A stretch of 64,000 nt of DNA. Source: an uncultured virus (IMG/VR IMGVR_UViG_3300032323_003710) (taxonomy: Duplodnaviria > Heunggongvirae > Uroviricota > Caudoviricetes). Location: the IMG/VR virus record IMGVR_UViG_3300032323_003710; one strand, written 5' to 3'. Shown here piece after piece: positions 42,445-64,000 of this stretch. Position 1 is the first letter of the stretch. Each line of letters begins with the position of its first letter. A program made the translations under genes and the position numbers. The notes under the pieces were generated by a model that ran no database searches, was not told where the DNA came from, and saw nothing but the letters and a program-made list of their open reading frames with translations.

Positions 42445-42472
42445 AAAAAAAGAGAGCAAATGCTCTCTTTTT
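42445..42472 (-). terminator. Intrinsic terminator
   Basis: AAAAAAGAGAGCA-aa-TGCTCTCTTTTT. Confidence 0.75.
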
Positions 42473-45760: not shown

Positions 45761-45782
45761 AATAATTTGCTATATTTGTAGC

Positions 45783-48799: not shown

Positions 48800-49778
48800 A
48801 TATATAAATGATTTCATTAAAGACTTATCAATTAAAGATAAGAAAACACTTTCACAAAAAACACTTAAATTAGTAGAAGAAGTAGGTGAACTCTCAAGAT
48901 TTATTCTACCATTTGATTCAGCACCAGGAACAAACCATAGATTTTCAGATAGAGAAAAAATACTTGAAGAAGTAGTAGATGTTTATTTATCAAACATTTC
49001 TATTGCACATTCATTAGGTTTCACTGATGAAGAGTTTAATGAAATGTTAAACAAGAAAACTGATAAGTGGGCTAAGCTTCAATTAAAAGAAGATGAAGTA
49101 ACTTTCCCTTTACCTTATGAGATACATGTTACTGTTGATACCTCAGAAAACTTCTTTGAATGTGATATAGATGGGTTTAAATCTAAATGTCAAGAAATTG
49201 ATGTTAAACCAATTGTTTTAGATTTAGAAATGAAAGAAGGAACTTTGAAGGATGTAATGACAAGTTCAAAGCACTTTGGAGACAATAGAACTGCATATGA
49301 AGAAGCAAATCGTATTGCTAATAAACTTACATCATTTGGTTACAAAGTTGTCAGAAACAAGATAGAAACAGTTCCTTGGCATCCTGCAGCACCTACTTTT
49401 AAAACAGGAGAACCAATTCCAAATGGATGTTACTTTGAAAGTCATATTGGTGTTGTTATTTCACCAGATGAAAAAGAAGCTCTACAAGAGTTTGTACAAG
49501 GATTAAATGATAGATGTACAGAAGCTGGTAGAATTGAGATAGGTGGTACTTGTAAATTATCACAGAACTTCTTTAAGAAATCTAAAGATGGTAGTAAGTT
49601 TGTTAATATGCTTACTTATAGAGATAATATGACTTGTAGAGAAGACTTTGAACATGGAGTTGAAGCAATTAAATGGTCATTAGATAAATGTGGATTTGAC
49701 TTTGAGAAAGTTGAAGTTGAATATGCACTTTATGATACCAATGTAAATCATGATTCAAAATGGATTCTTGGACTATAA
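48792..49778 (+). CDS. MazG-like domain fused to uncharacterised His/Glu-motif domain
   Basis: KLVEEVGEL...EEVVDV; then YEIHVTV, RNKIET, YFESHIG, EYALYDTN..HD..W. Confidence 0.75.
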   Translation: MSKYINDFIKDLSIKDKKTLSQKTLKLVEEVGELSRFILPFDSAPGTNHRFSDREKILEEVVDVYLSNISIAHSLGFTDEEFNEMLNKKTDKWAKLQLKEDEVTFPLPYEIHVTVDTSENFFECDIDGFKSKCQEIDVKPIVLDLEMKEGTLKDVMTSSKHFGDNRTAYEEANRIANKLTSFGYKVVRNKIETVPWHPAAPTFKTGEPIPNGCYFESHIGVVISPDEKEALQEFVQGLNDRCTEAGRIEIGGTCKLSQNFFKKSKDGSKFVNMLTYRDNMTCREDFEHGVEAIKWSLDKCGFDFEKVEVEYALYDTNVNHDSKWILGL

Positions 49779-50038
49779 AAAGTAATATAAAGGATGGTAA
49801 GGTTAAATTTAAAGTAGGTGATAAAGTAATTTGTTTTAGAAGAAAAACTAATGGTCATCCAAGAAAAATAAAGGATGATGTTGAATATACTATAAAGTCA
49901 ATAGTTAATGATGATTTGTTTATTGCAACACATTCATTAGATGGTATTGGATGGAATCAAGTTATAAAGGTTCATAAAACTTATATGATAAGTAAAGCAG
50001 ATTTAAGAGAAATTAAAATAAATGAGATATTAAGATGA
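49760..50038 (+). CDS. Small SH3/KOW-like protein with RD tag
   Basis: FKVGDKVIC; ends DLREIKINEILR. Confidence 0.75.
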   Translation: MDSWTIKSNIKDGKVKFKVGDKVICFRRKTNGHPRKIKDDVEYTIKSIVNDDLFIATHSLDGIGWNQVIKVHKTYMISKADLREIKINEILR

Positions 50039-50472
50039 TATACTATGATTCACATAAGAATAAATTTATACCTATAGATAAAAAAGATATAGAGATTAAG
50101 TTTATTACAAATAATAACATTACAACAAGACAACTAAGTAAAGAGTGTGAAATAGTTATAAGGTTTGATTATTCTGAATTAAAGTATTTCAAACAATGGT
50201 TTGATGATACACATGATAGTCAAAGGATGAGGTATGTTTCTGAATATAAAAGAGACATCTTTATATCAGATCCCGATTCTGTTATAGATACAAAGTTTTG
50301 TAATTGTTTTATATCAAGTATGGAATTATATGATTTTAGATCACCTTACAATAGTGTGGTTAATCAGTTTGAAGTTTTATTGAAATGTGATTATTATGAA
50401 AAAGGTGGTGTTTATCCAGAGTTAAAGGCAATATATAGAGATAAGAAGATAGACTTAATACTATCAAAATAA
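50035..50472 (+). CDS. Tail-tube (gp19)-like derivative with RD tag
   Basis: YFKQW...SEYKRDIFI...FEVLLKCDYYE then YRDKKIDLILSK. Confidence 0.65.
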   Translation: MIYYDSHKNKFIPIDKKDIEIKFITNNNITTRQLSKECEIVIRFDYSELKYFKQWFDDTHDSQRMRYVSEYKRDIFISDPDSVIDTKFCNCFISSMELYDFRSPYNSVVNQFEVLLKCDYYEKGGVYPELKAIYRDKKIDLILSK

Positions 50473-50500
50473 AAAGAGAAGTCAATGACTTCTCTTTTTT
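50470..50500. terminator. Bidirectional intrinsic terminator
   Basis: AAAAAGAGAAGTCA-a-TGACTTCTCTTTTTT. Confidence 0.8.
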
Positions 50501-50550
50501 ATGGTTACCAGTAGTAACAGACTTATAGTACTGAGACTATAAGGTGGTTT

Positions 50551-51021
50551 TTAATATATCATTTTACTTGGGAACTCACTTTCTTTTCTAGTATGTGGGT
50601 ATGATTCTTTATCAAAACACTTTTTAATTTCACACGCTTTTTTCCAAGCAACAAACTTAGGATCATGTTCTGCAGGATTTTCAAAACTATGTTGAAAGTT
50701 TTTTTGATAGTCAAGTAATTCTTCTTTTGATTTATTCATAAAGTAATCAAAGGTTCCTTCTGTTTCTTCTCTACTTTCTAATAGTTTATTTAACATTTTA
50801 CCATCTGCTGCATAAAAGTCTGTAAGTTTGAATCCTAATTCTTTACAATATTTAGTAATAAGTTTATCTTGAAACTTTTCTTTTTGACCTGCTAATAAAT
50901 CTTTATAATCTTTATTATCTTTTAAATCAGCTTTAACTTTCTTGGCAACTGCTCTTCTGTTTGCATCTGTCATTTCTTTCTTAGCTTCTTTAGCTTCATT
51001 AAATCTTTTTAAATATTTCAT
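50551..51021 (-). CDS. Hypothetical protein with MKYLKRFNE tag
   Basis: Start moved to MKYLKRFNEA; AATATATA 51044-51051. Confidence 0.8.
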   Translation of the reverse strand: MKYLKRFNEAKEAKKEMTDANRRAVAKKVKADLKDNKDYKDLLAGQKEKFQDKLITKYCKELGFKLTDFYAADGKMLNKLLESREETEGTFDYFMNKSKEELLDYQKNFQHSFENPAEHDPKFVAWKKACEIKKCFDKESYPHTRKESEFPSKMIY

Positions 51022-51106
51022 AATATACAATTTTTTATTAAACTATATATTAATTAATCAAACTTATTTTTCTTTTTTTCTATAAATAAGAAAATAATTT
51101 AATTAA

Positions 51107-52282
51107 ATGGGTAAACTCGCGTTAAATTTTATATGTAAAGATGAATCACATGTAATAGAAAGAATGCTTACTTCTGTTAAATCAATTGTTGATTTAATAG
51201 TTGTTAATGATACCGGATCAACTGATGGTACACAAGACTTGATAAGAAAGTTTGGAAAAGAAAACAATATACCTACTTATGTTTTTGATAGACCTTTTGA
51301 TGACTTTGAAAAAAGTAGAAATCATGCTATGGAAAAACTAAGAGAAGTAGTAAAGGAATTAGGCTGGGATGCTAACAAAGTACACGGTTTCTGGATTGAC
51401 TGTGATGAACAAATGGTTGTTGAACCAGGTTTCAATAAAAATCAATTCACTAATGACCTTTATATGATTAATACTTTCATTGGTCAAATGAAATACACAA
51501 GAAATACTTTCTTCAAAGTTTCTAAACCCTTTAGATGGTATGGCCCTGTGCATGAGTTCATTGTGTGTGATGACCAGAACATTTCATCAGGATTAGCAGA
51601 AGGATGTTTTGTTAATGTTAGTATGGATGGTAATTCTTGGCAGTCAAGTATTCCTGCTAAATACCTATCACATTCTCACAAATTAGAATCTTATATTGCA
51701 GAGAATAGACAGGATCCAAGATGGATTTTCTATACTGCACAATCTTATCATGATTCAGCATCAATGCCTGATAATCAAGAAGAGAATAAAGAAAGACTTA
51801 GACGTTCTTTAAGATATTATAAAGAAAGAACTGAAAGAACTGATGGTTATGCAGAGGAAATTTACTATGCTCATTACAGAATGGGTTCAATTATGAAAAC
51901 ATTAGAAGAACCTTGGAACTTAACAATGCAACAATGTTTAAAAGCTTATGCAATTGATCCTTTGAGAGGTGAATCAATTAAACTAATAATTGATTACTAC
52001 TTACAAATGGGAGAATGGCACTTAGCTTATTTATACACTAAGTTTGGTTATGAGAACTTTCACAATAAAAATCCTTATCCAACAAGATTATTATTTGTTG
52101 AAGAAGCTCTTTACACTTGGAAATTTGCAGAGGCACATGCTGCATCTTGTTTCTATACAGGTAGAAAAGATGAAGCTAAGAAAGTTTATGAACAAATGGT
52201 AGCATTAACTAAAACAAATCCTGGTGCATTCTCACAAGATGATTTGAATAAGATTAATACTAATGCACAATTCTTCAAATAA
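51107..52282 (+). CDS. GT2 glycosyltransferase with C-terminal TPR-like repeats
   Basis: ICKDES..IER.L.S, DTGSTDGT, FDDF..SRN, IDCDE, WYGPVHE; class B motif 51060-51087. Confidence 0.88.
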   Translation: MGKLALNFICKDESHVIERMLTSVKSIVDLIVVNDTGSTDGTQDLIRKFGKENNIPTYVFDRPFDDFEKSRNHAMEKLREVVKELGWDANKVHGFWIDCDEQMVVEPGFNKNQFTNDLYMINTFIGQMKYTRNTFFKVSKPFRWYGPVHEFIVCDDQNISSGLAEGCFVNVSMDGNSWQSSIPAKYLSHSHKLESYIAENRQDPRWIFYTAQSYHDSASMPDNQEENKERLRRSLRYYKERTERTDGYAEEIYYAHYRMGSIMKTLEEPWNLTMQQCLKAYAIDPLRGESIKLIIDYYLQMGEWHLAYLYTKFGYENFHNKNPYPTRLLFVEEALYTWKFAEAHAASCFYTGRKDEAKKVYEQMVALTKTNPGAFSQDDLNKINTNAQFFK

Positions 52283-52308
52283 AAAAATCCCTCAACTGAG
52301 GGATTTTT
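52281..52308. terminator. Bidirectional intrinsic terminator
   Basis: AAAAATCCCTCA-ac-TGAGGGATTTTT. Confidence 0.8.
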
Positions 52309-53047
52309 ATTTTTTTATCCATTCTTTAAATCTAATAATAGATTCATTTAATGTTTCTACAAAATCAAATTCTCTAAGAAAATCACCAAAATCTTCAAGA
52401 TAACCTTTCTTACTTTCATCAAACTTATCTTTAGTCCATTGCCAATTAAATGATAGAATATCAGGTGTCTTAAATCCAAAGAATCCCAATACTTCTCTTT
52501 CTAATTTTATTGCTTCTTTACCATTCCAATTGTGACCAGTTGCAATGATACCACATTCTTTGTTTTTTAATAAATTGGATTCACCTAATGTAGCATGTCT
52601 ATTTTCTAACCAAGTTAATCTTTCAATTAGTTCACCATAAATAGAATTCATTTTACCCCAACGTATAGATCCAAAAAATATTATTATGTCTGCATCAAAA
52701 ATAGCATTTGCAACCTTGTACATTTCATCAGTTTTATTGTTTAGTGCTGCCCAACATCTAATATCTCCAGTAGGATTTTTTGTCTTATCATTTAACTTTG
52801 CTTGTTTAAGACCACAAGTATTTCCTCTTTTAGTTGATACATTTCCCTCACAAGGAAATATTTTAAGTTTTGAAACATTAATAAGATTAATATTTTCAGA
52901 ACCTAACTTCTTTATTAATTCATCTGCAATTATTGATGATTTGGGTAGTTCTTTATCTCCTTCCCATCTATTAGATGTAGTTAGAAAAAGAATTTTCTTA
53001 TCATCATTCTTTTTAAGATAGTTGTAAAGCTTTTTTAATTTATCCAT
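52307..53047 (-). CDS. Flavodoxin-fold NAD(P)H-dependent FMN reductase-like protein
   Basis: LTTSNR, KIFPCEGNVS...C...CWA, DADIIIFFGSIRWG, IERL, GHNW. Confidence 0.8.
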   Translation of the reverse strand: MDKLKKLYNYLKKNDDKKILFLTTSNRWEGDKELPKSSIIADELIKKLGSENINLINVSKLKIFPCEGNVSTKRGNTCGLKQAKLNDKTKNPTGDIRCWAALNNKTDEMYKVANAIFDADIIIFFGSIRWGKMNSIYGELIERLTWLENRHATLGESNLLKNKECGIIATGHNWNGKEAIKLEREVLGFFGFKTPDILSFNWQWTKDKFDESKKGYLEDFGDFLREFDFVETLNESIIRFKEWIKK

Positions 53048-53060
53048 ACATTATATATAA

Positions 53061-53094
53061 AAAAAGAAACATCACTTTTTCAAGTGATGTTTCT
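53061..53094 (-). terminator. Intrinsic terminator
   Basis: A-tract AGAAACATCACTT-tttc-AAGTGATGTTTCT. Confidence 0.75.
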
Positions 53095-53109
53095 AAAATA
53101 AATTAATTT

Positions 53110-53277
53110 TTATTTTTTTCTTTTGTTCAATACTGATAAAACAACACCAGTTAATGTAACTACTGCACCAATTGCTTCTTGGATTAAACCAGCTTCTAAT
53201 AAACCATTAGTTAATAAAACACCTCCAACAAATGTAAGAGTGTGTCTAAGTAAACCTAAAATTTCTTCTTTATTCAT
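53110..53277 (-). CDS. Putative 2-TM holin (Pam3-gp28-like), 55 aa
   Basis: Hand translation MNKEEILGLLRHTLTFVGGVLLTNGLLEAGLIQEAIGAVVTLTGVVLSVLNKRKK; AATATATA 53329-53336. Confidence 0.7.
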   Translation of the reverse strand: MNKEEILGLLRHTLTFVGGVLLTNGLLEAGLIQEAIGAVVTLTGVVLSVLNKRKK

Positions 53278-53380
53278 AGTTTTTATTTATTTTTTGTTAT
53301 GATTATGTGGTCACATATTCACATTATCTATATATTTTACTCAAAATAAGTGTTATGGAAGGATCATAAAAAACCAATTA

Positions 53381-53437
53381 AAAAAGAAACACCACTTAAA
53401 AAATAAGTGGTGTCTGACCAGAAATACTATTTCTGGT
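53381..53437 (-). terminator. Tandem hairpins / terminator
   Basis: ACACCACTTA..TAAGTGGTGT and ACCAGAAAT..ATTTCTGGT, U-tract on minus strand. Confidence 0.65.
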
Positions 53438-53454
53438 GGGGTTCTTAAATTTAT

Positions 53455-53619
53455 TTAAGCATATGACCAATTACTTGAATCATTGTGATCATCTAATTCA
53501 TCTTCCTCAAGTTGTTTTTGTTTAGCTTTTTGAATCATTTTAATTTTAGATTTTACCTTGTCAAAAAATCTCTTCTTAATATTATCAGATTTTAGAATTA
53601 ATTTTACAATCTTTCTCAT
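53455..53619 (-). CDS. 54-aa hypothetical protein
   Basis: Hand translation MRKIVKLILKSDNIKKRFFDKVKSKIKMIQKAKQKQLEEDELDDHNDSSNWSYA. Confidence 0.5.
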   Translation of the reverse strand: MRKIVKLILKSDNIKKRFFDKVKSKIKMIQKAKQKQLEEDELDDHNDSSNWSYA

Positions 53620-53629
53620 TTTTAACTTT

Positions 53630-54658
53630 TTAATTTTTTAATTTTAATAACCATTGTATTTTAGCTTTTATGTTATATAACCCCAAACTAAAACTTTGTA
53701 ACCATGTAATAAAACCTCTATATTTATAAGCTAATTTTAATTTTCTAACAATACCTCTATGTGATGTAGGTGATACCTTCATAATCCAAGGCATCCAACT
53801 TATATCATCAGAAGCTACTATTGGAACTTTAGCTGTAACAAAATCAGCAGTAACAATATTAAATGATTCAGAAAAAGATACTTGCATACCTATATCCATT
53901 TTAGATGCTACTTCCAAAAATTCAGAATGTTTATACCATTTATGTTCAATAAGCTCATGTTCAGAATGTTCAAATAACGCTTGAATATTTCTTAACACAT
54001 TGTCACCAGATTGTTCTACTCTGGTTCCATTGATGTGAAATCTTAATCTTTTACCTATTTTTTCAGCAAACTCTATTGCAGCCATTGCTTGTTGGTATGT
54101 ATTCTTCATAGGTCTAATTGCACCAAAAGAACCAATATCAACAAAGTCATCACTTTTAATGTGTTTTTCAGGTGTGAATGGTTTAGCTTTATAAATATTT
54201 GGTAAAAATATAAATTTACCAGTTGGGAAACAATAAGTTAATTGTTCAGTAAGTTCTGTTGTGTTTGGAGCTATCTCAATTTTCAAATCCTTGATAGAAG
54301 CATATTGTTTTATCCATCTAGTTGCAATACCCTCATTGGCCAAAAATGGTGCTTTTGAATGTAATCTAACTATCCATCTTCTATTCTTGTGTCTTTGTAT
54401 TTGAAATAATTCTTTGAACTTTGCAGGTGGAACCCAAATAGCTTCAATTATAACCACATCTGGATTAAATTCAGTCACAACTCTATCAATTTGATTTGAG
54501 TCAACTACTGGTGTAATTTTAGCTTCAAAATCATTTTCATTTAGATAATTAACAACAAAACTAGCAGAATTAAATAACCCCGAAGTAACACCATAAGTGT
54601 CTTTTACTCTATCACATGTTATAAATTGTATGCGTTTCTTTGGGTTTATTTCTCTCAT
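53630..54658 (-). CDS. GT-B (GT4-like) glycosyltransferase
   Basis: IGSFGAIRPMKN, QVSFSESFNIVTADFV..KVPIVAS. Confidence 0.8.
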   Translation of the reverse strand: MREINPKKRIQFITCDRVKDTYGVTSGLFNSASFVVNYLNENDFEAKITPVVDSNQIDRVVTEFNPDVVIIEAIWVPPAKFKELFQIQRHKNRRWIVRLHSKAPFLANEGIATRWIKQYASIKDLKIEIAPNTTELTEQLTYCFPTGKFIFLPNIYKAKPFTPEKHIKSDDFVDIGSFGAIRPMKNTYQQAMAAIEFAEKIGKRLRFHINGTRVEQSGDNVLRNIQALFEHSEHELIEHKWYKHSEFLEVASKMDIGMQVSFSESFNIVTADFVTAKVPIVASDDISWMPWIMKVSPTSHRGIVRKLKLAYKYRGFITWLQSFSLGLYNIKAKIQWLLKLKN

Positions 54659-54678
54659 TTTATAACATATGTTTTTTT

Positions 54679-55008
54679 TTATTTACAACAATCTTTAATG
54701 ATTGTAGTTATTTCTGCTTTAACTTTTCCTAATTGATCATATTTGAATTCTTTACCAAATTTCTCACCTTTTTTCTTAACAGTGATTTCATTAGTACGGA
54801 ACATAACTTGACCAATATGTTCACCATCACAATGAATTTCAAAATCATCACCAACTTGTTTTGCTTTACAATCTTTAGTTTTGATATGGTCTTCAACAGA
54901 CTTTCTTAATTGGTCTTTCTTATCCTCTTTTACTTTGTTTCCATAAGGATTTTTTGCCGCTTTTTCAGCTTTGCCTTCAAAAAGGTTAAATGATACTAAG
55001 TTTTTCAT
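54679..55008 (-). CDS. Hypothetical protein with MKNLVSFNLFE tag
   Basis: AATATATA 55031-55038. Confidence 0.75.
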   Translation of the reverse strand: MKNLVSFNLFEGKAEKAAKNPYGNKVKEDKKDQLRKSVEDHIKTKDCKAKQVGDDFEIHCDGEHIGQVMFRTNEITVKKKGEKFGKEFKYDQLGKVKAEITTIIKDCCK

Positions 55009-55091
55009 TATTTAGTTATTTTTTATAAGTTATATATTAAATACTAAAACTACTTTTAGAACTTTCTATAATTATTTCTCAAAAAATAGTA

Positions 55092-55128
55092 AAAAAAATA
55101 GACACTTAAAAAAGTGTCTATTTTTTTT
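55092..55128 (-). terminator. Intrinsic terminator
   Basis: AAAAAAATAGACACTT-aaaa-AAGTGTCTATTTTTTT. Confidence 0.75.
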
Positions 55129-55768
55129 ATTTTGAGAGTAATTTTATCAAATCTTCTGTTATCTTAGTTATTAACTTTTTACCATCAACTTCAACTAAAG
55201 GAATATTTTTAATCATTGAATACTTATCATTACCATCAACATAAATTGATTCAATAAGTTTTTTCATCTTTGGATCTTTATATTTATTTATGTAATAAGT
55301 TTTTAATTCATTAACAAACTTGTTAAGATCAACTCCTTCTTTATGATTATATTTAACCATTTGAAGTTCATTATCTAATTTCTCAACCATTATGTACCAT
55401 ATTGATTTCTTTGAAACTTTTACATTCTCTAAAAAGTTGAAAGCTTTAGATGCTTTTACATTCTTTGGGAATTTTGCAACTCGACCATAAGTCTGTACTT
55501 TGTCTTCACTAATTTTCTCATCTTCCTTAGCTTCTTCTTCTTTCTCATCATACCACTCATTATCCAACTTAGGATATTGTTGCTCTTTAGGCATTAGATT
55601 TTTTCTTGAAGCAGGTCTCTCAATCTTTGTAGATCCAGTTGGAACATTAGGATTCATAGGTAAGTCTGTATCAGGTGTTAAAGACATATCTACTTCTTCT
55701 ACTTTAGAAGAACCTGACTTAATATCTGAAAACTTTTTAAAACCTACAATTTTTTTATTGTCTGCCAT
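55127..55768 (-). CDS. Hypothetical protein
   Basis: N-terminal GFKKFSD; AATATATA 55796-55803. Confidence 0.8.
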   Translation of the reverse strand: MADNKKIVGFKKFSDIKSGSSKVEEVDMSLTPDTDLPMNPNVPTGSTKIERPASRKNLMPKEQQYPKLDNEWYDEKEEEAKEDEKISEDKVQTYGRVAKFPKNVKASKAFNFLENVKVSKKSIWYIMVEKLDNELQMVKYNHKEGVDLNKFVNELKTYYINKYKDPKMKKLIESIYVDGNDKYSMIKNIPLVEVDGKKLITKITEDLIKLLSK

Positions 55769-55867
55769 TTTATTTACTTTTTATTTTAGTAATAGTATAT
55801 ATTAAATAATATATCTCAATTTATGTATTTTATCATAAAATATCAAAAAGTTACTATTATTTTAGGT

Positions 55868-56308
55868 TTACTTTTTTATTGTAATTATCAATTTTTTAAT
55901 TTTACTATTATCTAAGGAACTTAAATCAAGATTATATCTATCATTATATTCTGTTGAAGGCCACTTTATTTTACGATTTCCATCTAAGTAAAGAATACCT
56001 CTTATACCATATTTCTCACTTAAAAATAATATAAATGGAATTAAATCATCTGAAAACTCATTAAAATCAAATACTTCACTCATAATTTGTAAACTATTTG
56101 TGAACTTCTCAACTACAATTGTATCATATCTACTATTTGATGGATATTTAATAGTAGTTTGAAAATTACTATCAGATTGTATTTGTGCTTCTCTTGATAC
56201 TCTAACAACAAAATTGAAATTTTTATCAATTAAGTAAGCTAAATTATCATTACAGAATTGTTTTAATTCATCTGTTCTTGATGCTTCAAATAGTTTTAAA
56301 TATTTCAT
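55868..56308 (-). CDS. Hypothetical protein with MKYLKLFE tag
   Basis: Start moved to MKYLKLFEAS. Confidence 0.75.
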   Translation of the reverse strand: MKYLKLFEASRTDELKQFCNDNLAYLIDKNFNFVVRVSREAQIQSDSNFQTTIKYPSNSRYDTIVVEKFTNSLQIMSEVFDFNEFSDDLIPFILFLSEKYGIRGILYLDGNRKIKWPSTEYNDRYNLDLSSLDNSKIKKLIITIKK

Positions 56309-56309
56309 A

Positions 56310-56555
56310 TTATTTGTACCAGTCTTTATCAACTATATAATTTTTGAAATTCTTAACAACATTCATCTGGTCAAATAACAATCCAACCAATGGTTGTAAT
56401 CTCTTTAGAAAACCATTCATTGTGTCATTTTGATATAAGTAAGGTGTTAGAGTTTTATCTAATAACATATTCTCATAGTCAATATAATCATTATCATTAT
56501 CATGTCTATGTTTCATATAATATAATTCTGGGAGTTGTTTCTTTCTATATAACAT
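56310..56555 (-). CDS. Small protein downstream of baseplate wedge (possibly baseplate-associated)
   Basis: TAATG-coupled to gp6-like gene. Confidence 0.65.
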   Translation of the reverse strand: MLYRKKQLPELYYMKHRHDNDNDYIDYENMLLDKTLTPYLYQNDTMNGFLKRLQPLVGLLFDQMNVVKNFKNYIVDKDWYK

Positions 56556-58279
56556 TAGATTTGTGGTCTATTTTTTGAATCAACTGTACCTTTCTTGATT
56601 ATATTTACTGATTTTAATCCTGTTGAATCAACACCATCAGAATAGTAATTACCATTTCTATCATACCAACCACCTCTTATTACAGGGATTTCATTTGGTT
56701 CAAATATAATGTCACCTAAGACAGGATCTAAACCAACAACACTTGTTGGGTTGTAACCTGGAACTAAAGCTGCGGTAGATATGTCGGTGTTGTAGCTAGA
56801 GGCATACTTACTAACTTTGTTAGCAGCAATTACCATATTTTCATTGTGGTAGTCTTCATTCTTTTTAGATACAAATTGAATATCAACAGAGTGAATATCA
56901 GTAATTGTTGATAACTCTCTAATAATATCTAACTTAGGTACTCTATCAATTCTTGATAAGTCTAAGAAGTACTCTGAAATCCTATCTAATATCTGTGCAT
57001 TAACTGATTCATCTGTTGCATCTGAATAACTAATAACAAATATGTTCATTGTGTAATATGAAAGTGTAGGTGAAACTATTTTATATTTTCTTGTTAATTG
57101 TATGTTACCACCTGTTCTTAAATACTTATCAATCTTTGACTTCTCATAATTATCTAAAATAAAGGCAGCAATATTTATTGAGAAGTAATCTGCATTTTGA
57201 CTTTTGAATAATCTAATGTTAGGTGTGGCAACTATGAATATAGTTCCTGATCTTTCATAAGCATTAACATGTGAGAATACACCAAGTTTTTTAATTTCAT
57301 AAGCATATTGTTGAGGTAATCCTAATACAAAATTATTACTTGCAATTGGTAATATATTTCTTGTAAATGCCAAACTTTCTTTATCTGCACCAAAGTTTAT
57401 ATCTGTAAAAATATCAATATCAAAAACTTTATCAACATTTACAACCTCACCATCTGAACTAATAATATCATCTACAAATTTCCAATCATTTATTGTTCTT
57501 CTAAAGATATTACCTAATTGACCATCTGTACATAAATATTTAACTTCTATTATAGAACCAATTGTAGGAATTAAACCAAATCCCTCATTACCAAAGATAA
57601 TATCAATACCACCATCATAACCAGTTCTTACAACACAAGCTTTCTCACCAGGTAGCATTTCAAATATATGTTTCTTCAATGAGTAAAAATCACCATTTAC
57701 TGTAACTTCACAATTAAAGTTCTCAACATCCTTTCTACCTAATTCAATAACTGAAAGTGTTTGTAATGGTGTACCATCTCCAGTATAAGTTTTAGTTTTC
57801 CAGCTACCTTGAATAATAGGAACATAAAATGTATAGTTTGGTGTTATTCTATGTGTAATAGTATCAGTACCAATATTGAATGAATAAGAAAGACCATTAG
57901 TTTTGTTTTTCATTTCAATTTTATTTCTCAATGTAACTCTTGATCCAGGAATATCTTTTTCAATATCTGCTGATGACTTTAATGTAAATTTAATTGTACC
58001 TGTTGCTGATATTGCTCTACCTGGATTGTGACCAGCTGAGATTGCTGCATTTCTAATAACTCTCTCATTGTTAGAATTTGCAATACTCAAGTCAAATGTA
58101 TTAATAGCATTCTTTAGATAAAGTAAAGATAACTGATGTAAGTTCTCTACTACCAAAAGTATTTGCCCATAAGGAGCTGCTGCAGAGAATAAAACATTAG
58201 CTTTATTGTACTCATTTTTTAAAAAGTTTTCAATTTCAAACTTAACATTTGAGAAAGTAATTTCTGAAAATAATGCCAT
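56555..58279 (-). CDS. Baseplate wedge protein (T4 gp6-like)
   Basis: ITFSNVK..I..FL, IRNAA..AGHNP.RAISA, IIFGN.GFG.IP..GSIIEVKYL.TDG..GN, GADKES. Confidence 0.8.
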   Translation of the reverse strand: MALFSEITFSNVKFEIENFLKNEYNKANVLFSAAAPYGQILLVVENLHQLSLLYLKNAINTFDLSIANSNNERVIRNAAISAGHNPGRAISATGTIKFTLKSSADIEKDIPGSRVTLRNKIEMKNKTNGLSYSFNIGTDTITHRITPNYTFYVPIIQGSWKTKTYTGDGTPLQTLSVIELGRKDVENFNCEVTVNGDFYSLKKHIFEMLPGEKACVVRTGYDGGIDIIFGNEGFGLIPTIGSIIEVKYLCTDGQLGNIFRRTINDWKFVDDIISSDGEVVNVDKVFDIDIFTDINFGADKESLAFTRNILPIASNNFVLGLPQQYAYEIKKLGVFSHVNAYERSGTIFIVATPNIRLFKSQNADYFSINIAAFILDNYEKSKIDKYLRTGGNIQLTRKYKIVSPTLSYYTMNIFVISYSDATDESVNAQILDRISEYFLDLSRIDRVPKLDIIRELSTITDIHSVDIQFVSKKNEDYHNENMVIAANKVSKYASSYNTDISTAALVPGYNPTSVVGLDPVLGDIIFEPNEIPVIRGGWYDRNGNYYSDGVDSTGLKSVNIIKKGTVDSKNRPQI

Positions 58280-58288
58280 TATTTATTA

Positions 58289-58759
58289 TTATTTTTTTAA
58301 CTTAATTAATAGTTTATTAATTAAATCTAATGCAGAATCCTTATCTAAATGATTAGAATTTTCTAATTCCTTTTTTAAGTCTTCCAATTTTTTCTCATTA
58401 TCATCAAAACCTCCATCAAATAAAATCTCCAAAGAATTAGTTAAATTCTCAACAATGTAATCTGAACTGAATCTGTTTTTCTCAAAGATGTCTTGAACAT
58501 CTGAACTAAATGTATAGATAGATGAAACTCTTTCAACTAAACTATTCTCATCTAATGGATTTGCATAATAGTTCCAAGAGAAATTAGCATTTTCAATTTC
58601 AGTCATCTTAATTATTGCTTTAACTTCTTTATTATTTTCTAATACTGATAACTCAAAATAGTTACCTAATTCTTTGTTAGACTTCTCAGAAATCTGAACA
58701 TTTTCAAAGTAATTAGTAAGATCACCATGAACTCTATTTATATTTTGTTTCAATTCCAT
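58289..58759 (-). CDS. Hypothetical protein
   Basis: First gene of baseplate operon; AATATATA 58781-58788. Confidence 0.75.
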   Translation of the reverse strand: MELKQNINRVHGDLTNYFENVQISEKSNKELGNYFELSVLENNKEVKAIIKMTEIENANFSWNYYANPLDENSLVERVSSIYTFSSDVQDIFEKNRFSSDYIVENLTNSLEILFDGGFDDNEKKLEDLKKELENSNHLDKDSALDLINKLLIKLKK

Positions 58760-58901
58760 TTTAATTTTTTAATTTTCTTTTATATATTAAAAAAATTATC
58801 TTGCTAATACAAAATAAATACAAAACTACGTCGTTATAGTAGAGAATGTCAGACTTTTTATTATTTAGTTTTAATATATATAATAAAAAAAATTGTATTG
58901 G

Positions 58902-59630
58902 ATGAATGATACATTATTAGATGAGTTAATAAATCTTATTGATAAACATGGCATTAAAGGATTTGTAGGTGTTTTACTTGTATATTCACTAATTTCTATA
59001 TTTAAAAGTCAATGGTTTGGTAACCTTTTCTCAAAATTATCAGATAAATTTGTTGAAAGATTTATGAAAAGTGAGACAAAAGATGTTAGTATCAGAAAAA
59101 TTAATGATTCTGATATAACTAATCATGATATATTTAACTATATTGACTTTTGGACTTATTCTAAAGTTCCAACTTTTCAATTCTCAACAGAGTTTAGAAC
59201 TGCAGTATTTAGAAAGTATTTAACTATCTATCTTAAAAACTACAAAAGAAACATTGAGAAATTTGTAGTAGATAAAAGTTATGAGACAATGGATGAACCA
59301 CAAATACTTAAAACATTTCTTAACCTTATAAACCAAACTGTTTATGACTATGAGAGAGAAATGAGTGATGTAGGTATCACTCCTATTATTATAGAGAAGA
59401 TGAAAGTTAAGAACAATGATAACATATCTTTAACAATAGATTTAGTTGAAGGTGTTTGTTCATCACAGTTTTATAACTCTGAGAATAATTTATTAAAAAT
59501 ATATTCAATACTTAATATATTACTTACAGTATTAGAAAGTACTGTAAATAATGCTGAAAGTGTTTGTAATACTATCAATGGTCAATTAAAAGGATTGACT
59601 TTTGAAGGAAAAATAGAACCTGGTAAATAA
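58902..59630 (+). CDS. Membrane-anchored hypothetical protein, first gene of two-component operon
   Basis: N-terminal TM (GFVGVLLVYSLISIF); AATATATA 58873-58880; ATG at 58902 or TTG at 58893. Confidence 0.75.
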   Translation: MNDTLLDELINLIDKHGIKGFVGVLLVYSLISIFKSQWFGNLFSKLSDKFVERFMKSETKDVSIRKINDSDITNHDIFNYIDFWTYSKVPTFQFSTEFRTAVFRKYLTIYLKNYKRNIEKFVVDKSYETMDEPQILKTFLNLINQTVYDYEREMSDVGITPIIIEKMKVKNNDNISLTIDLVEGVCSSQFYNSENNLLKIYSILNILLTVLESTVNNAESVCNTINGQLKGLTFEGKIEPGK

Positions 59631-61108
59631 TGGATATTATTAAAGAATTAGAAAAGTATGTAAACGAATTAAAAAGAAAAGAGGATGAAATATCCAATAG
59701 AATGTATGCTATTAATCAGTCAAATGCAGTCATAGAGTTTGAACTAAATGGTACTATAAAATATGCAAATAAATTATTTTTAGAAACTATGGGTTATTCA
59801 TCAGAAGATGAAGTTGTAGGAAAACATCATAGTATTTTTATGGAAGATGATGTAAAAGATACTCAAGCATATTTTGATTTTTGGGAAAGATTAAATCAAG
59901 GTAAATTCTTTAGTGGAGAAATCAAAAGAAAGAAGAAAGATGGAACTCTAATTTATTTACAAGCAACATATAATCCAATTATTGGTACTGATGGTAAAGC
60001 TTATAGTGTAATAAAAATTGCTACTGATATTACTAAAATTTTTAATCAACAAATAGAGATTGAAAATAAAGAAAATGAAATTCGTAATAGAATGAATGCT
60101 ATTAACCAGTCAAATGCTGTTATAGAGTTTGAACTTAATGGTACTATAAAATATGCAAATGATTTATTTGTATCTACTATGGGTTATTCTTCACAGGATG
60201 AAATTGTAGGAAAACATCATAGTATTTTTATGGAAGATGATGTAAAAGATACTCAGGCATATTTTGATTTTTGGGAAAGATTAAATGAAGGTACATTCTT
60301 TAGTGGAGAGATTACAAGAAAGAAAAAAGATGGAACTTTAATCTATTTACAAGCAACATATAATCCAATTATTTCGACTGATGGTAGAATATATAGTGTA
60401 ATGAAAATTGCAACTGATATTACTAAAAGTTTTAATCAACAAATAGAGATTGAAAAGAAAAATACTTATCTAGAACATGCTGCCAAAATACTTAGACATG
60501 ATATGCATAGTGGAATTAATACCTATATGCCACGTGGTTTAAGTTCACTTGATCGTAGGATTACTGATGAACAACTGAAAGAGTTAAAAATTGATGCACC
60601 TCTTAAAATGATAAGAGAAGGTTTAAGACATACTCAAAAAGTTTACAAAGGAGTTTATGAATTTACAAATCTTGTAAAGAAAGATGTTGTTTTAAATCGT
60701 TCAGATCTTAACCTAAAAGATATTCTTGAGGATTATCTTTCAGCAACTGCATACAAACCTCAAGTTATTATAGAAGACTTAGGTATTGTATCAGTAAATG
60801 AAGCTCTTTTCTGTACTGCAATAGACAATTTAATTCGTAATGGACTTAAATACAATGATAGTGCATCAAAGTTTGTCAAAATTTATAAAAAAGATTATAA
60901 TATATACATAGAAGATAATGGTAGAGGTATGTCCGCAGAGGAATTTAAACTTCTATCTCAACCTTACACTAGAAAAGAAGATCAAAAAGAATCTGGTACT
61001 GGATTAGGCCTTAACATATGTGTTGCTATACTTGAAGAACATAAATTTAATATATCTTGTAGAAAGTTATCTCAAGGTACACAAATAAAAATAAAAATAA
61101 ATAACTAA
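59630..61108 (+). CDS. Soluble PAS-PAS sensor histidine kinase
   Basis: Two PAS/PAC domains; H-box LRHDMHS, N-box DNLIRNGLKYN, G1 EDNGRGM, G2 GTGLGL. Confidence 0.92.
   Translation: MDIIKELEKYVNELKRKEDEISNRMYAINQSNAVIEFELNGTIKYANKLFLETMGYSSEDEVVGKHHSIFMEDDVKDTQAYFDFWERLNQGKFFSGEIKRKKKDGTLIYLQATYNPIIGTDGKAYSVIKIATDITKIFNQQIEIENKENEIRNRMNAINQSNAVIEFELNGTIKYANDLFVSTMGYSSQDEIVGKHHSIFMEDDVKDTQAYFDFWERLNEGTFFSGEITRKKKDGTLIYLQATYNPIISTDGRIYSVMKIATDITKSFNQQIEIEKKNTYLEHAAKILRHDMHSGINTYMPRGLSSLDRRITDEQLKELKIDAPLKMIREGLRHTQKVYKGVYEFTNLVKKDVVLNRSDLNLKDILEDYLSATAYKPQVIIEDLGIVSVNEALFCTAIDNLIRNGLKYNDSASKFVKIYKKDYNIYIEDNGRGMSAEEFKLLSQPYTRKEDQKESGTGLGLNICVAILEEHKFNISCRKLSQGTQIKIKINN
59696..60456 (+). repeat. 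Recent tandem duplication of PAS domain (period 390 bp)
   Basis: 59696-60066 vs 60086-60456 nearly identical at DNA level. Confidence 0.9.
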
Positions 61109-61110
61109 AA

Positions 61111-61542
61111 ATGATTGATTCTATTTTATTAGTGGACGATGAAAGCCTTTTCCACTTAGTATTTGAAGACGCTTGTAGTCTTTTAGATATATCTCTTTCT
61201 TTAGAATGTTTAGATAGCTCAGATGAAGCAGCTAGAACATTTGAAGATTTATATCAAACAGGGAAAGCTAGACCAGAGTGTGTCTTTGTAGACCTAAATA
61301 TAATTGGTTCCTCTTTTGATGGAATTGAACTAATTCGTAAAATAACTGAGGACATGGGTAATGGAATGGTTATTGGAATCATCTCATCATCAGATGAACC
61401 AGAAGAACAAGCAAAAGCTAAAAAAGCTGGTGCACAATTTTGGATAATAAAGTCTGATGAGATTGAACCACGTCTTGAAGATTTTGTAAAAGATTTTGAT
61501 GGTTATAAAAATCATACAGCACCATTTAAAGTATATAAATAG
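61111..61542 (+). CDS. Single-domain response regulator (REC)
   Basis: ILLVDDE, VFVDLN (phospho-Asp), DGIELI, ISSS, IIKS. Confidence 0.92.
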   Translation: MIDSILLVDDESLFHLVFEDACSLLDISLSLECLDSSDEAARTFEDLYQTGKARPECVFVDLNIIGSSFDGIELIRKITEDMGNGMVIGIISSSDEPEEQAKAKKAGAQFWIIKSDEIEPRLEDFVKDFDGYKNHTAPFKVYK

Positions 61543-61548
61543 TAAATA

Positions 61549-62121
61549 ATGAAAATAGATAAAATAACTAGAGATACTTTACTACTAATTAAAAAAGAAA
61601 AGAAAGTTGTCCTTGAAGGAAATATACTAAAAATCCTTAAAGCAGAACCAGGTGATGAGGAATTTGAGAAATATCTTTTAGATGCAACTGAAAAAGATAA
61701 AGAAGGTAGAAGACGTAGATTAGATGTAACTAAACAAGTTCAAGCTAGAAATGCAGAATTGTTAGAATCAGAAGTAGAGAATAAAAAACTATTAGAAGAA
61801 CTAAATGTTGCTTTGGAAAATGCTGAGAAATTAAAGTCAGAAGCAGAACAAGCAAAGGATGATGCTTTGATGGATTTAGATATTCTACAAAAGAAGTCTC
61901 AGACAGAACTTATTAGTACAATTGTAAAAGTAGCTCTTTATGTAATAATTGGTGTTGGACTAACAACAACAATTATGTATGCAATTGCTTTATTTACAGG
62001 TGCTGATACACAAATTATTGGTTCAACTTGGAGTAATATGTTTGGAATACTTTTAACAAATGCCTTTTCAATTGTAGGTACAATTATGGGTGTTAAATAT
62101 GCCAGTGAGAAAAAAGAATAA
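61549..62121 (+). CDS. Coiled-coil protein with two C-terminal TM helices
   Basis: Heptad region then VALYVIIGVGLTTTIMYAIALF and MFGILLTNAFSIVGTIMGV. Confidence 0.8.
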   Translation: MKIDKITRDTLLLIKKEKKVVLEGNILKILKAEPGDEEFEKYLLDATEKDKEGRRRRLDVTKQVQARNAELLESEVENKKLLEELNVALENAEKLKSEAEQAKDDALMDLDILQKKSQTELISTIVKVALYVIIGVGLTTTIMYAIALFTGADTQIIGSTWSNMFGILLTNAFSIVGTIMGVKYASEKKE

Positions 62122-62170
62122 AAAACAAATTGATTGTCAAAACAATCAAAAAAAAACAAAAAAATATAAT

Positions 62171-62545
62171 ATGAAACATATAAAATTATTTGAAAATTTT
62201 AACAATGATATATCAGAAGAAATAGATAACTGGATAGAGGCTAATAATGACTATATTAGTGCATCCTCTTTAGAAGATAAATTGAAAGAACTTATTGGAG
62301 ATGATGATATAGAATCTTCTGAGACTATAGAGAAGAATTCTGGAGGTAATGAGTATGGAGAAAATTGGAGTACTAAAGTTATTTGTATAAAATACAAAGG
62401 ACAAGAACTTATGAAGGTTTGTGTTAATTCCTCAGGTGTATATGATTTTGGAAAGAATAGTATTATGTTTGAGGGACTTCCTAAAGACAAAGTTGTTGAA
62501 GCTGGATTTGGTACAAGATTTTTCTTTGATAAAAGTTTAGTTTAG
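62171..62545 (+). CDS. Hypothetical protein with MKHIKLFE tag
   Basis: Start moved to MKHIKLFENFN. Confidence 0.75.
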   Translation: MKHIKLFENFNNDISEEIDNWIEANNDYISASSLEDKLKELIGDDDIESSETIEKNSGGNEYGENWSTKVICIKYKGQELMKVCVNSSGVYDFGKNSIMFEGLPKDKVVEAGFGTRFFFDKSLV

Positions 62546-62562
62546 AAATTAAATACAATATA

Positions 62563-62603
62563 AATAAAAAATACTCAAACTTTCATTTGAGTATTTTTAT
62601 TTA
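62563..62603. terminator. Bidirectional terminator
   Basis: AAAAATACTCAAA..TTTGAGTATTTTT between convergent genes. Confidence 0.7.
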
Positions 62604-62622
62604 TTGGTAATTGCTCTCTTTT

Positions 62623-63168
62623 TTAATTCATTAAGTCATAAACATCTGTTGCAGTAAAATCAGGATCTGTAATTCCCAAATCATAATCAATATCTACACT
62701 AAAGTCTATATCATCTGCATCAAGTCTTCTTTTAATTGAATCATTTTTGTCTTCTCTTCTATGTAATCTACTTTCTCTTACATCTCTTGCAATGTTTAGA
62801 TAAACAACAAAACATCCTTTTCTTAAATCTTCTGGTAAAGTTAATAACTCTCCTGGTGTCATTATCAATACTTGTTTAGCCATAAACTCTTCTAATGTAA
62901 TTCCATAGTACCAAGTCTCTGGTTCAGAATTTTCAGGTGTTACTTCAAATGATTGATAAGTCAAAAACTTATTATCTTCTATTAATTGCTTAAACTCTTC
63001 TTGTTTTATAAAATTGTAAGTAACTCCATGTTGTTCAAACTTTCTAATAGGTCTTGTAGTACATTTAAGACAAGGTGTTAAACCTTTTTCAACTAACTTT
63101 CTCATTAAGAAATCTTTACCACTCCCAGATTTTCCAAGTATTATCACTTTTTCTGTCTTAATTTGCAT
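62623..63168 (-). CDS. gmk: Guanylate kinase-like protein
   Basis: GKSGSGKD, TTRPIR..E..GV.Y.F, WYYG, RL..R.D...I.RRL..D; class B motif 63189-63217. Confidence 0.85.
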   Translation of the reverse strand: MQIKTEKVIILGKSGSGKDFLMRKLVEKGLTPCLKCTTRPIRKFEQHGVTYNFIKQEEFKQLIEDNKFLTYQSFEVTPENSEPETWYYGITLEEFMAKQVLIMTPGELLTLPEDLRKGCFVVYLNIARDVRESRLHRREDKNDSIKRRLDADDIDFSVDIDYDLGITDPDFTATDVYDLMN

Positions 63169-63291
63169 TATTATAGTTAATATTTTTTATTTATACAAAT
63201 TATTCTATGATTTGTTTATATCTCCAATAGAAACCGCCTGCTCTTCTATGTTCATTATTGCAACAAAAAACTATGTTACTTGATTCTATAT

Positions 63292-63534
63292 TTAATATAT
63301 TGGTTTGTAATTAGGATATATCCCTGGGTAGTTATAGTTTCCTTTTCTTACCTCAGCTGCTTCTGTATCAACTGCTAATTGGTAATCAGGATCTTCTTTT
63401 TCTTTATCTTTACAAGGAATACAAATTGTATCTGTATTAAATACACTCATTGTAGTTTGATTATTTGTGGATTCACCACATCTTGGACAAACATCTACAT
63501 TCATTGAGAATGCTTCAAATTTTTTTAATTTCAT
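63292..63534 (-). CDS. Small Zn-finger protein with MKLKKFE tag
   Basis: CPRC...MSVFNTDTICIPC...GNYNYPGI; start moved to MKLKKFEAF. Confidence 0.75.
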   Translation of the reverse strand: MKLKKFEAFSMNVDVCPRCGESTNNQTTMSVFNTDTICIPCKDKEKEDPDYQLAVDTEAAEVRKGNYNYPGIYPNYKPIY

Positions 63535-64000
63535 AATTATTTTTATTTTTGAATAAGTCAAAGAATTTCTTTACTTTACTAACTGGTTCTTCTTTTGGTA
63601 TTTGTCTATCAAAAGTTAATTCTAATTGATATATTAATGGATTATCATAATTTTCAATTACACTCTTATTAACTTCAACTAGTTCATCTAAACTCATAAC
63701 TCTAATTGAATTATTCATACATACATACCAAACATAAATACGAGTTAATGGTTTATCATAAACATCAAGTATATATTCTTCTGCAACTGATAATGTATCA
63801 TATATACTCTCTAATGAAACACATCCCTCAACTTTATTAGTTCTTTCTTTATCAATTCTTTTTAAGAAAACTCGGAATCCATCATGAAAATCTGGCACAT
63901 AATCACCTGCACAAGGATGATTATATCTTAAAAAAGTGACATCTGTATTAAAATCTAAATCAGTAATCTCAACAAATAAACTTTTAATATCTTCTTTATT
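63515..64000 (-). CDS. Hypothetical protein, starts beyond window end
   Basis: Frame open from 64000 (NKEDIKSLFVEITDLDF...) through ORF-track ORF 63515..63898. Confidence 0.7.
   Translation of the reverse strand, partial: NKEDIKSLFVEITDLDFNTDVTFLRYNHPCAGDYVPDFHDGFRVFLKRIDKERTNKVEGCVSLESIYDTLSVAEEYILDVYDKPLTRIYVWYVCMNNSIRVMSLDELVEVNKSVIENYDNPLIYQLELTFDRQIPKEEPVSKVKKFFDLFKNKNNYEIKKI

What the first reader, a model, noticed from the sequence alone, without database searches (positions are those of the whole stretch)
58873..62121. Complete phage-encoded two-component operon (TM protein - PAS-PAS kinase - REC - coiled-coil/2TM) under a late-type motif
Seen: four tightly packed genes with intact catalytic motifs (His in RHDM, N/G1/G2 boxes; DD, D, S, K in REC), divergent from the baseplate operon and preceded by AATATATA. 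The REC protein has no output domain, so it must act by protein-protein contact, and the flanking membrane proteins are obvious candidates. The PAS domains resemble those of soluble chemoreceptors (BdlA-type; redox/O2/energy sensing). Complete phosphorelays are unusual in phages. Inference: a late-acting sensor of host physiological state that may time lysis, or rewire host signalling.
Basis: partly seen in the sequence, partly recalled or inferred. Interest (0 to 1): 0.78.

Follow-up and report, generated by a model that had tools for sequence, protein, structure and literature searches.

The report
Phage sensor relay driving membrane hairpin
An uncultured giant phage carries a three-gene cassette (sensor kinase, small phospho-receiver and an undescribed two-helix membrane protein) that recurs in hundreds of viral contigs, and related phages fuse the same membrane hairpin to a sensor right beside their cell-wall-cutting enzyme, so these viruses likely time host bursting by reading the cell's internal state, which is untested.

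Summary
The genes and motifs are real, but the unit has three genes, not four. Kinase > receiver > coiled-coil/2-TM "hairpin" is a conserved cassette: about 630 viral stretches, catalytic residues invariant, dN/dS about 0.1. The 242-aa TM gene and the AATATATA motif belong to the backbone; nine relatives keep that gene without the cassette. The hairpin protein is the likely output. Its coiled coil varies in whole heptads (99 of 100 parsed proteins). Its N-cap also occurs fused to a kinase, and its hairpin occurs fused directly to PAS or GAF sensors. Those PAS-hairpin genes lie within 1 kb of an endolysin in 73 of 79 loci; the three-gene form does so in 62 of 163. Here no endolysin is adjacent, and a Pam3-gp28 holin lies 6 kb away. 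Best reading (0.55): signal-gated lysis timing, probably in Bacteroidota. Receiver-hairpin binding was not modelled (tool unavailable), and nothing is bench-tested. Nine paper searches found no description. This scan had already noted the same system on other genomes.

The parts
59630..61108 (+). Soluble PAS-PAS histidine kinase, 492 aa; His290 in RHDM, N, G1 and G2 boxes; the two PAS units (59681-60070, 60071-60460) are a recent tandem duplication
   Evidence: Pfam PAS and HATPase_c; PAS units 87% aa and 89% nt identical; H-box and G1 present in 129 of 129 distinct relatives; kinase-core dN/dS 0.125 vs L003
61111..61542 (+). Stand-alone receiver, 143 aa; phospho-acceptor D61; conserved C-terminal extension
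   Evidence: about 630 viral stretches, best 80 at 76-92% identity; kinase-receiver fusion proteins exist
61549..62121 (+). Effector: N-terminal helical cap (about 1-72), phase-locked coiled coil, two-helix membrane hairpin (about 121-185) with a polar/small face N163 T170 S174 G177 T178 G181
   Evidence: model pLDDT 87.8, pTM 0.38; alignments; heptad test and hydropathy; no PDB or named viral fold match; domain swaps
58902..59630 (+). 242-aa N-terminal-TM protein (phrog_18926, unknown function): backbone gene into whose 3' side the cassette is inserted; not part of the relay
58873..58880 (+). Phage promoter-like motif AATATATA of the backbone gene; probably drives the cassette by read-through; late timing inferred
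   Evidence: 27 of 40 copies within 45 nt of an ORF start
62171..62545 (+). 124-aa ORF with an MKHIKLFE-type start, inside the inserted stretch but not conserved with the cassette
   Evidence: a contig in run X1 skips it
62567..62598 (.). A/T-rich inverted repeat, terminator-like, between the operon and the convergent guanylate kinase; a match also follows the hairpin gene in records G015 and G016
   Evidence: read directly; not called by the consensus scan
53110..53277 (-). 55-aa Pam3 gp28-family holin about 6 kb upstream; candidate target of the hairpin in this phage
   Evidence: Pfam Phage_holin_10, E 1.9e-14

Best explanation
This phage carries a three-gene cassette of a PAS-PAS histidine kinase, a stand-alone receiver and a coiled-coil/two-helix membrane protein, in which the kinase likely phosphorylates the receiver, the receiver likely docks on the membrane protein's N-terminal cap, and the hairpin probably shifts the timing of holin-dependent lysis. 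Shown: gene order, intact catalytic residues, purifying selection, a heptad-phased linker, and the reuse of the cap with a kinase output and of the hairpin with PAS or GAF inputs beside endolysins. From established two-component chemistry: His290 to Asp61 phosphotransfer. Inferred: receiver-cap binding; a register shift down the dimeric coiled coil; a hairpin that acts as a signal-gated antiholin or co-holin (depolarising trigger) in the inner membrane; a redox or energy signal read by the PAS pair; late expression by read-through from the backbone promoter; a Bacteroidota host. I favour a holin modulator over the sole holin, because canonical holins sit in several of the same cassettes and near-complete relatives lack the cassette.
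For: (1) Fixed trio: among 163 loci with a called receiver, kinase motifs lie within 900 nt upstream in 149 (10 had no room, 4 none), and the hairpin family occurs in 156 loci. (2) Variable inputs, constant output: of 122 distinct complete kinases 85 have a TM or signal segment and 37 are soluble; PAS, GAF and extracytoplasmic inputs occur; 24 loci have two kinases. (3) The linker between two anchors spans 38-98 aa and is 3 mod 7 in 99 of 100 parsed proteins (16 of 116 not parsed), and in 119 of 119 parsed database hits. Such discretised lengths mark signalling coiled coils in Rec-GGDEF enzymes (PMC8041772, passages). (4) The cap plus coiled coil is fused to HisKA/HATPase in 5 clusters; in L083 that form keeps the same receiver upstream among T9SS-tail and CreD genes. 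(5) The hairpin is fused to PAS or GAF domains that are 52-73% identical to cassette kinase sensors. The 80 loci from that search hold no receiver, cap or RHDM kinase. (6) An M15 or GH19 endolysin lies within 1 kb in 73 of 79 such loci, 12 of 13 groups at 90% identity; two of the six misses have a phage lysozyme. (7) Three-gene form: endolysin within 1 kb in 62 of 163 loci, 15 of 37 groups with full flanks. In 17 of the 19 records over 100 kb, 10 have one strong GH19 match, and 9 of these lie within about 3 kb of the receiver. (8) dN/dS 0.10-0.13 against L003.
Against: In this phage no endolysin is adjacent, none matching the GH19 query is in the 17%-complete record, and in the closest cassette relative (G015) the endolysin is about 82 kb away. 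22 of 37 full-flank groups have no recognised endolysin within 1 kb, and many neighbours are metabolic genes. The hairpin matches no holin family convincingly: phrog_689 at E 0.006 in 2 of 72 members. The PAS-hairpin genes form one clade, so their 73 of 79 is not 79 independent events. Lysis cassettes may simply be late-expressed insertion hot spots. Some fusion proteins are evident chimeras, and four of the five cap-kinase clusters have no genomic context. The flavin-binding Asn of NifL and MmoS aligns to Arg in both PAS domains (role of that Asn recalled), so the signal is uncertain. No transcription is shown.
Confidence: 0.55

Rival explanations
1. The relay gates the same hairpin, but the membrane step is not lysis timing: for example superinfection exclusion, tuning of the proton-motive force or ion flux during late infection, or a signal-triggered growth arrest.
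For: The conserved polar face of helix 2 fits a small pore or a partner-binding surface. The cassette is unlinked to endolysin in this window, in G015 and in 22 of 37 full-flank groups. Exclusion genes are often accessory (own knowledge).
Against: The one-component PAS-hairpin form lies within 1 kb of an endolysin in 73 of 79 loci, beside three unrelated enzyme families.
Confidence: 0.22
2. The hairpin is itself the holin or pinholin, and the phosphorelay (or the fused PAS) is its trigger, a full replacement of the usual holin clock.
For: Two TM helices with an amphipathic, Gly/Ser/Thr/Asn-rich face; it is often the gene directly next to the endolysin.
Against: Phage_holin_4_1 or small candidate holins co-occur in many of the same cassettes. 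This window has a separate Pam3-gp28 holin. Three 97-98% complete relatives lack the receiver and the hairpin (one search had no positive control).
Confidence: 0.12
3. The receiver rewires host signalling (phosphate sink or source for host kinases) and the hairpin only anchors or sequesters it at the membrane.
For: Stand-alone receivers commonly shuttle phosphoryl groups (own knowledge). A bacterial-looking version feeds a second kinase.
Against: The hairpin is kept, nearly invariant and in heptad phase, in PAS fusions that have no receiver at all, which an anchor would not need. The receiver subfamily is nearly absent from cellular genomes: 5 close loci in the GTDB scan and 1 of 401 genomes of one Bacteroidota order.
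Confidence: 0.08
4. Host contamination, misassembly or a decaying relic.
For: The junction between the TM gene and the kinase is not bridged by an independent contig.
Against: Third-position GC is 0.13-0.16, like the baseplate gene; there is a TAATG overlap at the junction; 579 of 600 pattern-matching viral stretches encode a receiver relative; dN/dS is about 0.1; a contig in run X1 spans kinase end, receiver and hairpin start, and another joins the hairpin end to the guanylate kinase flank.
Confidence: 0.03

Closest known systems
T4 lysis inhibition: holin T with antiholin RI (PMC11413866, abstract read)
   Same: A phage adjusts holin timing in response to a signal through a membrane-associated partner.
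   Different: T4 responds to superinfection through a periplasmic T/RI contact, with no kinase, receiver or PAS domain. No similarity to T or RI came up in the family or fold searches.
Rec-controlled coiled-coil effectors: Leptospira DgcR (PMC8041772, passages) and LvrB (PMC13269768, abstract)
   Same: Receiver phosphorylation acts through a coiled coil; in Rec-GGDEF proteins linker lengths differ by multiples of 7, as here. The cap-kinase form in L083 resembles a split Rec-controlled kinase.
   Different: Here the receiver is a separate gene acting in trans (inferred), and the output is a membrane hairpin rather than an enzyme.
Phage phiCDHM1 agr cassette (PMC7790227, passages)
   Same: A phage encodes a homologue of a sensor kinase (AgrC).
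   Different: It lacks the response regulator AgrA and is a peptide quorum-sensing system; here kinase, receiver and effector are all phage-encoded.
LytSR control of LrgAB/CidAB in Firmicutes (recalled; lead from an earlier scan note, no paper read)
   Same: A two-component system is linked to holin/antiholin-like membrane proteins.
   Different: Bacterial and transcriptional (DNA-binding LytR); here there is no DNA-binding output.
cREC domains of jumbo phages (PMC7824862, passages)
   Same: Receiver-like domains encoded by jumbo phages.
   Different: cREC is divergent, tied to NAD+-processing enzymes and, per the paper, never found in histidine-kinase systems; this receiver is canonical and kinase-linked.
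Flavin PAS sensors MmoS, NifL, Aer (PDB 3EWK, 2GJ3, 8DIK)
   Same: Best solved relatives of the kinase's PAS pair (E 4e-14 to 7e-09).
   Different: The Asn before the RRKDG motif of NifL and MmoS is Arg in both window PAS domains; the cofactor is not established.

Membership tests
Two-component system (His kinase + receiver) | HATPase_c domain with N, G1 and G2 boxes | tested here: met
   Pfam HATPase_c 8.6e-15; G1 in 129 of 129, strict N pattern in 107, strict G2 pattern in 104 distinct relatives
Two-component system (His kinase + receiver) | Conserved phospho-accepting His in a DHp region | tested here: met
   H-box pattern in 129 of 129, at a fixed 27 aa from the last PAS in 70 parsed kinases; Pfam HisKA itself not matched, so the DHp is atypical
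Two-component system (His kinase + receiver) | Receiver fold with acidic pocket, phospho-Asp, switch Ser/Thr and Lys | tested here: met
   D9, D10, D61, S92, K114 invariant in 57 sequences; fold matches solved receivers
Two-component system (His kinase + receiver) | Cognate pairing of kinase and receiver | tested here: met
   Adjacent in 149 of 163 loci; natural kinase-receiver fusions P0281-P0283. Genetic evidence only.
Two-component system (His kinase + receiver) | Autophosphorylation and phosphotransfer activity | not testable with these tools
   needs biochemistry
Holin / antiholin (190-aa hairpin protein) | Sequence or fold membership of a described holin family | tested here: not met
   Pfam none; phrog_689 only E 0.006 in 2 of 72 members; no fold match
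Holin / antiholin (190-aa hairpin protein) | Small TM protein encoded with the endolysin | tested here: inconclusive
   Met for PAS-hairpin relatives (73 of 79) and 62 of 163 three-gene loci; not met in this window
Holin / antiholin (190-aa hairpin protein) | Timed membrane permeabilisation, or its inhibition | not testable with these tools
   needs a lysis assay
FAD-binding PAS redox sensor (Aer/NifL/MmoS type) | Overall similarity to FAD PAS domains | tested here: met
   best PDB hits 3EWK, 8DIK, 2GJ3; BdlA/McpS PAS domains are predicted FAD binders in PMC8694187 (passages)
FAD-binding PAS redox sensor (Aer/NifL/MmoS type) | Flavin-contacting Asn before the RRKDG motif (role recalled) | tested here: not met
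   Arg at that position in both PAS domains (alignment)
   0 of 80 receiver loci have it; 0 of 9 records with it have the receiver
T4-type late promoter | TATAAATA consensus (recalled) | tested here: not met
   The motif is AATATATA; TATAAATA precedes ORFs in 7 of 27 copies against 27 of 40 for AATATATA. It works like a phage promoter; timing untested.

The most novel reading that the evidence does not exclude
Aquatic phages, large and small, share an undescribed signal-gated lysis switch: an invariant two-helix membrane hairpin on a heptad-phased coiled coil, plugged either directly into PAS or GAF sensors or into a complete phage phosphorelay with swappable and sometimes doubled kinases. The cassette moves between phage backbones, and lets a lytic phage set its burst time from host redox, energy or envelope state.
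Probability: 0.5. Interest if true: 0.92.

Novelty: categorically new. Interest (0 to 1): 0.8.

Why it matters
How lytic phages match burst time to host condition is an open question, and the best-known control (T4 lysis inhibition) responds to superinfection from outside. A phage-owned phosphorelay ending on a membrane hairpin would be a new kind of lysis control and a new output class for two-component signalling. It is small and modular, so it can be tested without culturing the phage. It is common in viral metagenome contigs yet has no receiver match among 50,697 GenBank phage records, which may explain why it was missed. This window adds that the cassette is accessory and probably mobile between backbones, and that it can sit away from the endolysin.

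Tried and rejected
Four-gene unit: rejected. TM gene 58902 as holin or receiver partner: no family beyond phrog_18926 and only unnamed viral look-alikes. Receiver-cap complex prediction: the tool's queue was full and nothing was folded, so binding is neither supported nor contradicted. Fold searches of the hairpin model found nothing named. A 'longer' search with hairpin residues 1-80 found nothing, though the profile search did find cap-kinase fusions. Viral scans with the L084 receiver and with cap-kinase P0255 found no relatives. Sigma-70 scan: 21 sites against 27 expected. Expression: three runs held only 5% of the words. Contigs of relatives in RNA run X3 cover parts of the receiver, the receiver-hairpin junction and the hairpin at depth 3-6, which does not show transcription. 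Hairpin tree: 90 columns only; fusions need 3 label changes, but starred branches do not rule out one origin. Several long 'fusions' (glycosyltransferase, FecCD, RNA polymerase, methylase) look chimeric and were set aside. JGI names such as 'Fe2+ transport protein B' and 'GLE1-like' were not supported by Pfam. Literature searches that found no description of the system: (listings only; two searches were for background). Subscription journals and bioRxiv supplements were not visible, and no supplements were read, so a mention in annotation tables cannot be excluded.
Full report
Setting. The window is the first 64 kb of a 75.6-kb linear viral record estimated 17% complete, i.e. a genome of roughly 440 kb. 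GC is 24-35% throughout, with no step at the finding. It encodes a baseplate wedge protein and a guanylate kinase on either side of the finding, plus NusG, glutamine synthetase, OmpH and a bifunctional nuclease. The nuclease matches 148 of 151 Bacteroidota genomes, mostly over its full length (E 1e-27 to 1e-44), but genomes of the Proteobacteria sample only partly (best 1.6e-17). A Bacteroidota host is therefore likely; only two phyla were compared.

Observation. The kinase is PAS-PAS-HATPase without a Pfam HisKA match, and the receiver passes Pfam's cut-off. The receiver model has a standard receiver fold with an extra C-terminal strand, and its catalytic residues are invariant in 57 sequences. 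The two PAS units are 87% identical, a recent duplication. The closest relative, L003, has a different PAS in first position. The best solved PAS relatives are MmoS, Aer and NifL, but the Asn before their RRKDG motif is Arg here, so the ligand is open.

The unit has three genes. A receiver scan of viral contigs confirmed 579 of 600 pattern-matching stretches (about 630 estimated in all) and kept 80 loci at 76-92% identity. A metagenome scan with a divergent receiver added 80 loci. Among 163 loci with a called receiver (73 groups at 92% identity), the hairpin family occurs in 156 and kinase motifs lie directly upstream in 149, with 10 too short and 4 lacking them. The 242-aa TM gene occurs in 0 of the first 80 loci. 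Its nine viral relatives lie beside the baseplate wedge gene, most also beside the guanylate kinase, with no cassette. None of those nine records matches the receiver, including three that are 97-98% complete. In L087 the end of the TM gene lies about 20 nt from the end of the guanylate kinase gene, so about 3 kb (59620-62609) is inserted in the window. Over window 45000-64000, record G015 shares only the cassette (93% over 2,063 nt), whereas G006 and G007 share the flanks at 70-90% and not the cassette. This points to transfer between backbones, with the caveat that G015 is 25% complete. AATATATA is a real promoter-like motif (27 of 40 copies before ORF starts; six of seven control octamers 0-31%, the overlapping one 13 of 23), but it belongs to the backbone gene.

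It is phage-borne and under selection. The GTDB scan gave five close loci, all in metagenome-assembled genomes of different phyla. L081 and L084 have phage-family neighbours, L082 and L085 are ambiguous, and L083 looks bacterial (T9SS-tail proteins, CreD). One of 401 genomes of L083's order matches. No receiver match exists in 50,697 GenBank phage records. dN/dS against L003 is 0.125, 0.112 and 0.099 for kinase core, receiver and hairpin.

The output is the 190-aa protein. The model shows a small helical cap, one long helix running into the first TM segment, a turn, and a second TM helix. The second helix is nearly invariant and has a face of Asn, Thr, Ser and Gly. The linker between two anchors varies from 38 to 98 residues and stays 3 mod 7 in 99 of 100 parsed proteins (16 not parsed). 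Rec-GGDEF linkers show the same discretised pattern and switch by a register shift (PMC8041772, passages). Both halves are reused elsewhere. Cap plus coiled coil is fused to a kinase in five clusters, and in L083 that form follows the same kinase and receiver, which ties the cap to the receiver. The hairpin is fused directly to PAS or GAF domains taken from the cassette kinases (52-73% identity), with PAS-to-anchor distances of 35 or 42. Loci of that form contain no receiver, cap or RHDM kinase (0 of 80). The simplest reading is sensor to coiled coil to hairpin, with the phosphorelay as an exchangeable front end. The inputs vary widely: 85 of 122 kinases have TM or signal segments and 37 are soluble, and 24 loci have two kinases.

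Link to lysis. PAS-hairpin genes have an M15 or GH19 endolysin within 1 kb in 73 of 79 loci (12 of 13 groups). Two of the misses have a phage lysozyme and three are cut short on one side. Phage_holin_4_1 or small TM genes often sit in the same cassettes. These genes form one clade, so the loci are not independent, though their neighbourhoods and enzyme families differ. For the three-gene form, an endolysin lies within 1 kb in 62 of 163 loci, 47 of 87 with both flanks and 15 of 37 groups. This is a lower bound, since only 22 family representatives and 165 of 172 listed nearest neighbours were annotated. Of the 19 receiver records over 100 kb I searched 17 (two near-copies left out): 10 have one strong GH19 match, 9 of them within about 3 kb of the receiver; 4 have only weak matches 6-38 kb away and 3 have none. 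Against the link: this window has no adjacent endolysin, G015's lies about 82 kb off, and more than half of the groups show none nearby. A Pam3-gp28 holin lies 6 kb upstream here. Trans action on a holin needs no linkage, but this phage gives no direct support.

Mechanism and odds. Holin modulator setting lysis time 0.55; other membrane function 0.22; sole gated holin 0.12; host rewiring 0.08; artefact 0.03. Expression is not shown: contigs of relatives in one RNA run cover parts of the cassette at depth 3-6.

Known systems and novelty. T4 T/RI is the functional analogue (PMC11413866, abstract). DgcR and LvrB are the mechanistic analogues (PMC8041772 passages; PMC13269768 abstract). phiCDHM1 carries a kinase without its regulator (PMC7790227, passages). 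Jumbo-phage cREC domains are unrelated to kinases (PMC7824862, passages). The kinase and receiver are members of a known class; the hairpin fails the family test for holins, so I claim that it likely works on lysis, not that it is a holin. Seven targeted searches of the open-access library listed no paper describing this system. Earlier notes of this scan report the same trio and the PAS-hairpin form on other genomes. They are not independent evidence; they gave me the T4 paper, the LytSR comparison and a prompt to test the fusion form, which I then counted myself.

Noticed in passing
window 53110-53277 (-): 55-aa Pam3 gp28-family holin; also found in relatives G006 and G011, which have no receiver match.
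   Followed up: partly
window 58902-59630 (+): Conserved N-terminal-TM protein (phrog_18926) kept beside the baseplate wedge gene in nine large-phage loci; function unknown, only unnamed viral look-alikes.
   Followed up: partly
whole record, e.g. 9220, 10331, 25893, 34712, 51051, 64881, 68057: Many genes start with an MKxLKxFE-like peptide and most of these follow the AATATATA motif; the motif-to-ATG spacing falls into two classes, about 4-8 and about 18-28 nt.
   Followed up: partly
window 325-879, 29608-30621, 34042-34629, 42471-42950, 27561-28778: Host-like genes: NusG, glutamine synthetase, bifunctional nuclease with UVR motif, OmpH/Skp-like protein and a poly(A) polymerase/CCA-type nucleotidyltransferase.
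   Followed up: partly
window 18225-19772 and 31613-32755: DUF2201 metallopeptidase-VWA protein and a MoxR-like AAA ORF (read by eye; no Pfam hit at 1e-4).
   Followed up: no
L083:4100-7481: Bacterial-looking version: multi-PAS kinase, the same receiver, and cap-coiled coil fused to a second kinase; a split receiver-controlled kinase.
   Followed up: partly
L003:6036-6410: The closest cassette relative has a T4-type late sigma factor (phrog_234) directly downstream of the hairpin gene.
   Followed up: no
L064:3327-3941 and family 10: A 200-245-aa protein with a signal-peptide-like start lies between the two kinases in many two-kinase loci; possibly an extracytoplasmic partner of the second kinase; no Pfam match.
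   Followed up: no
L007:2269-2877: TM protein with a GAF-like soluble domain (read by eye; weak unknown PHROGs) recurs near endolysins, reminiscent of the T4 holin T layout (recalled).
   Followed up: no
L082:7805-12240: PrkA, SpoVR and DUF444 trio next to the cassette in a phage-like contig binned with Bdellovibrionota.
   Followed up: no
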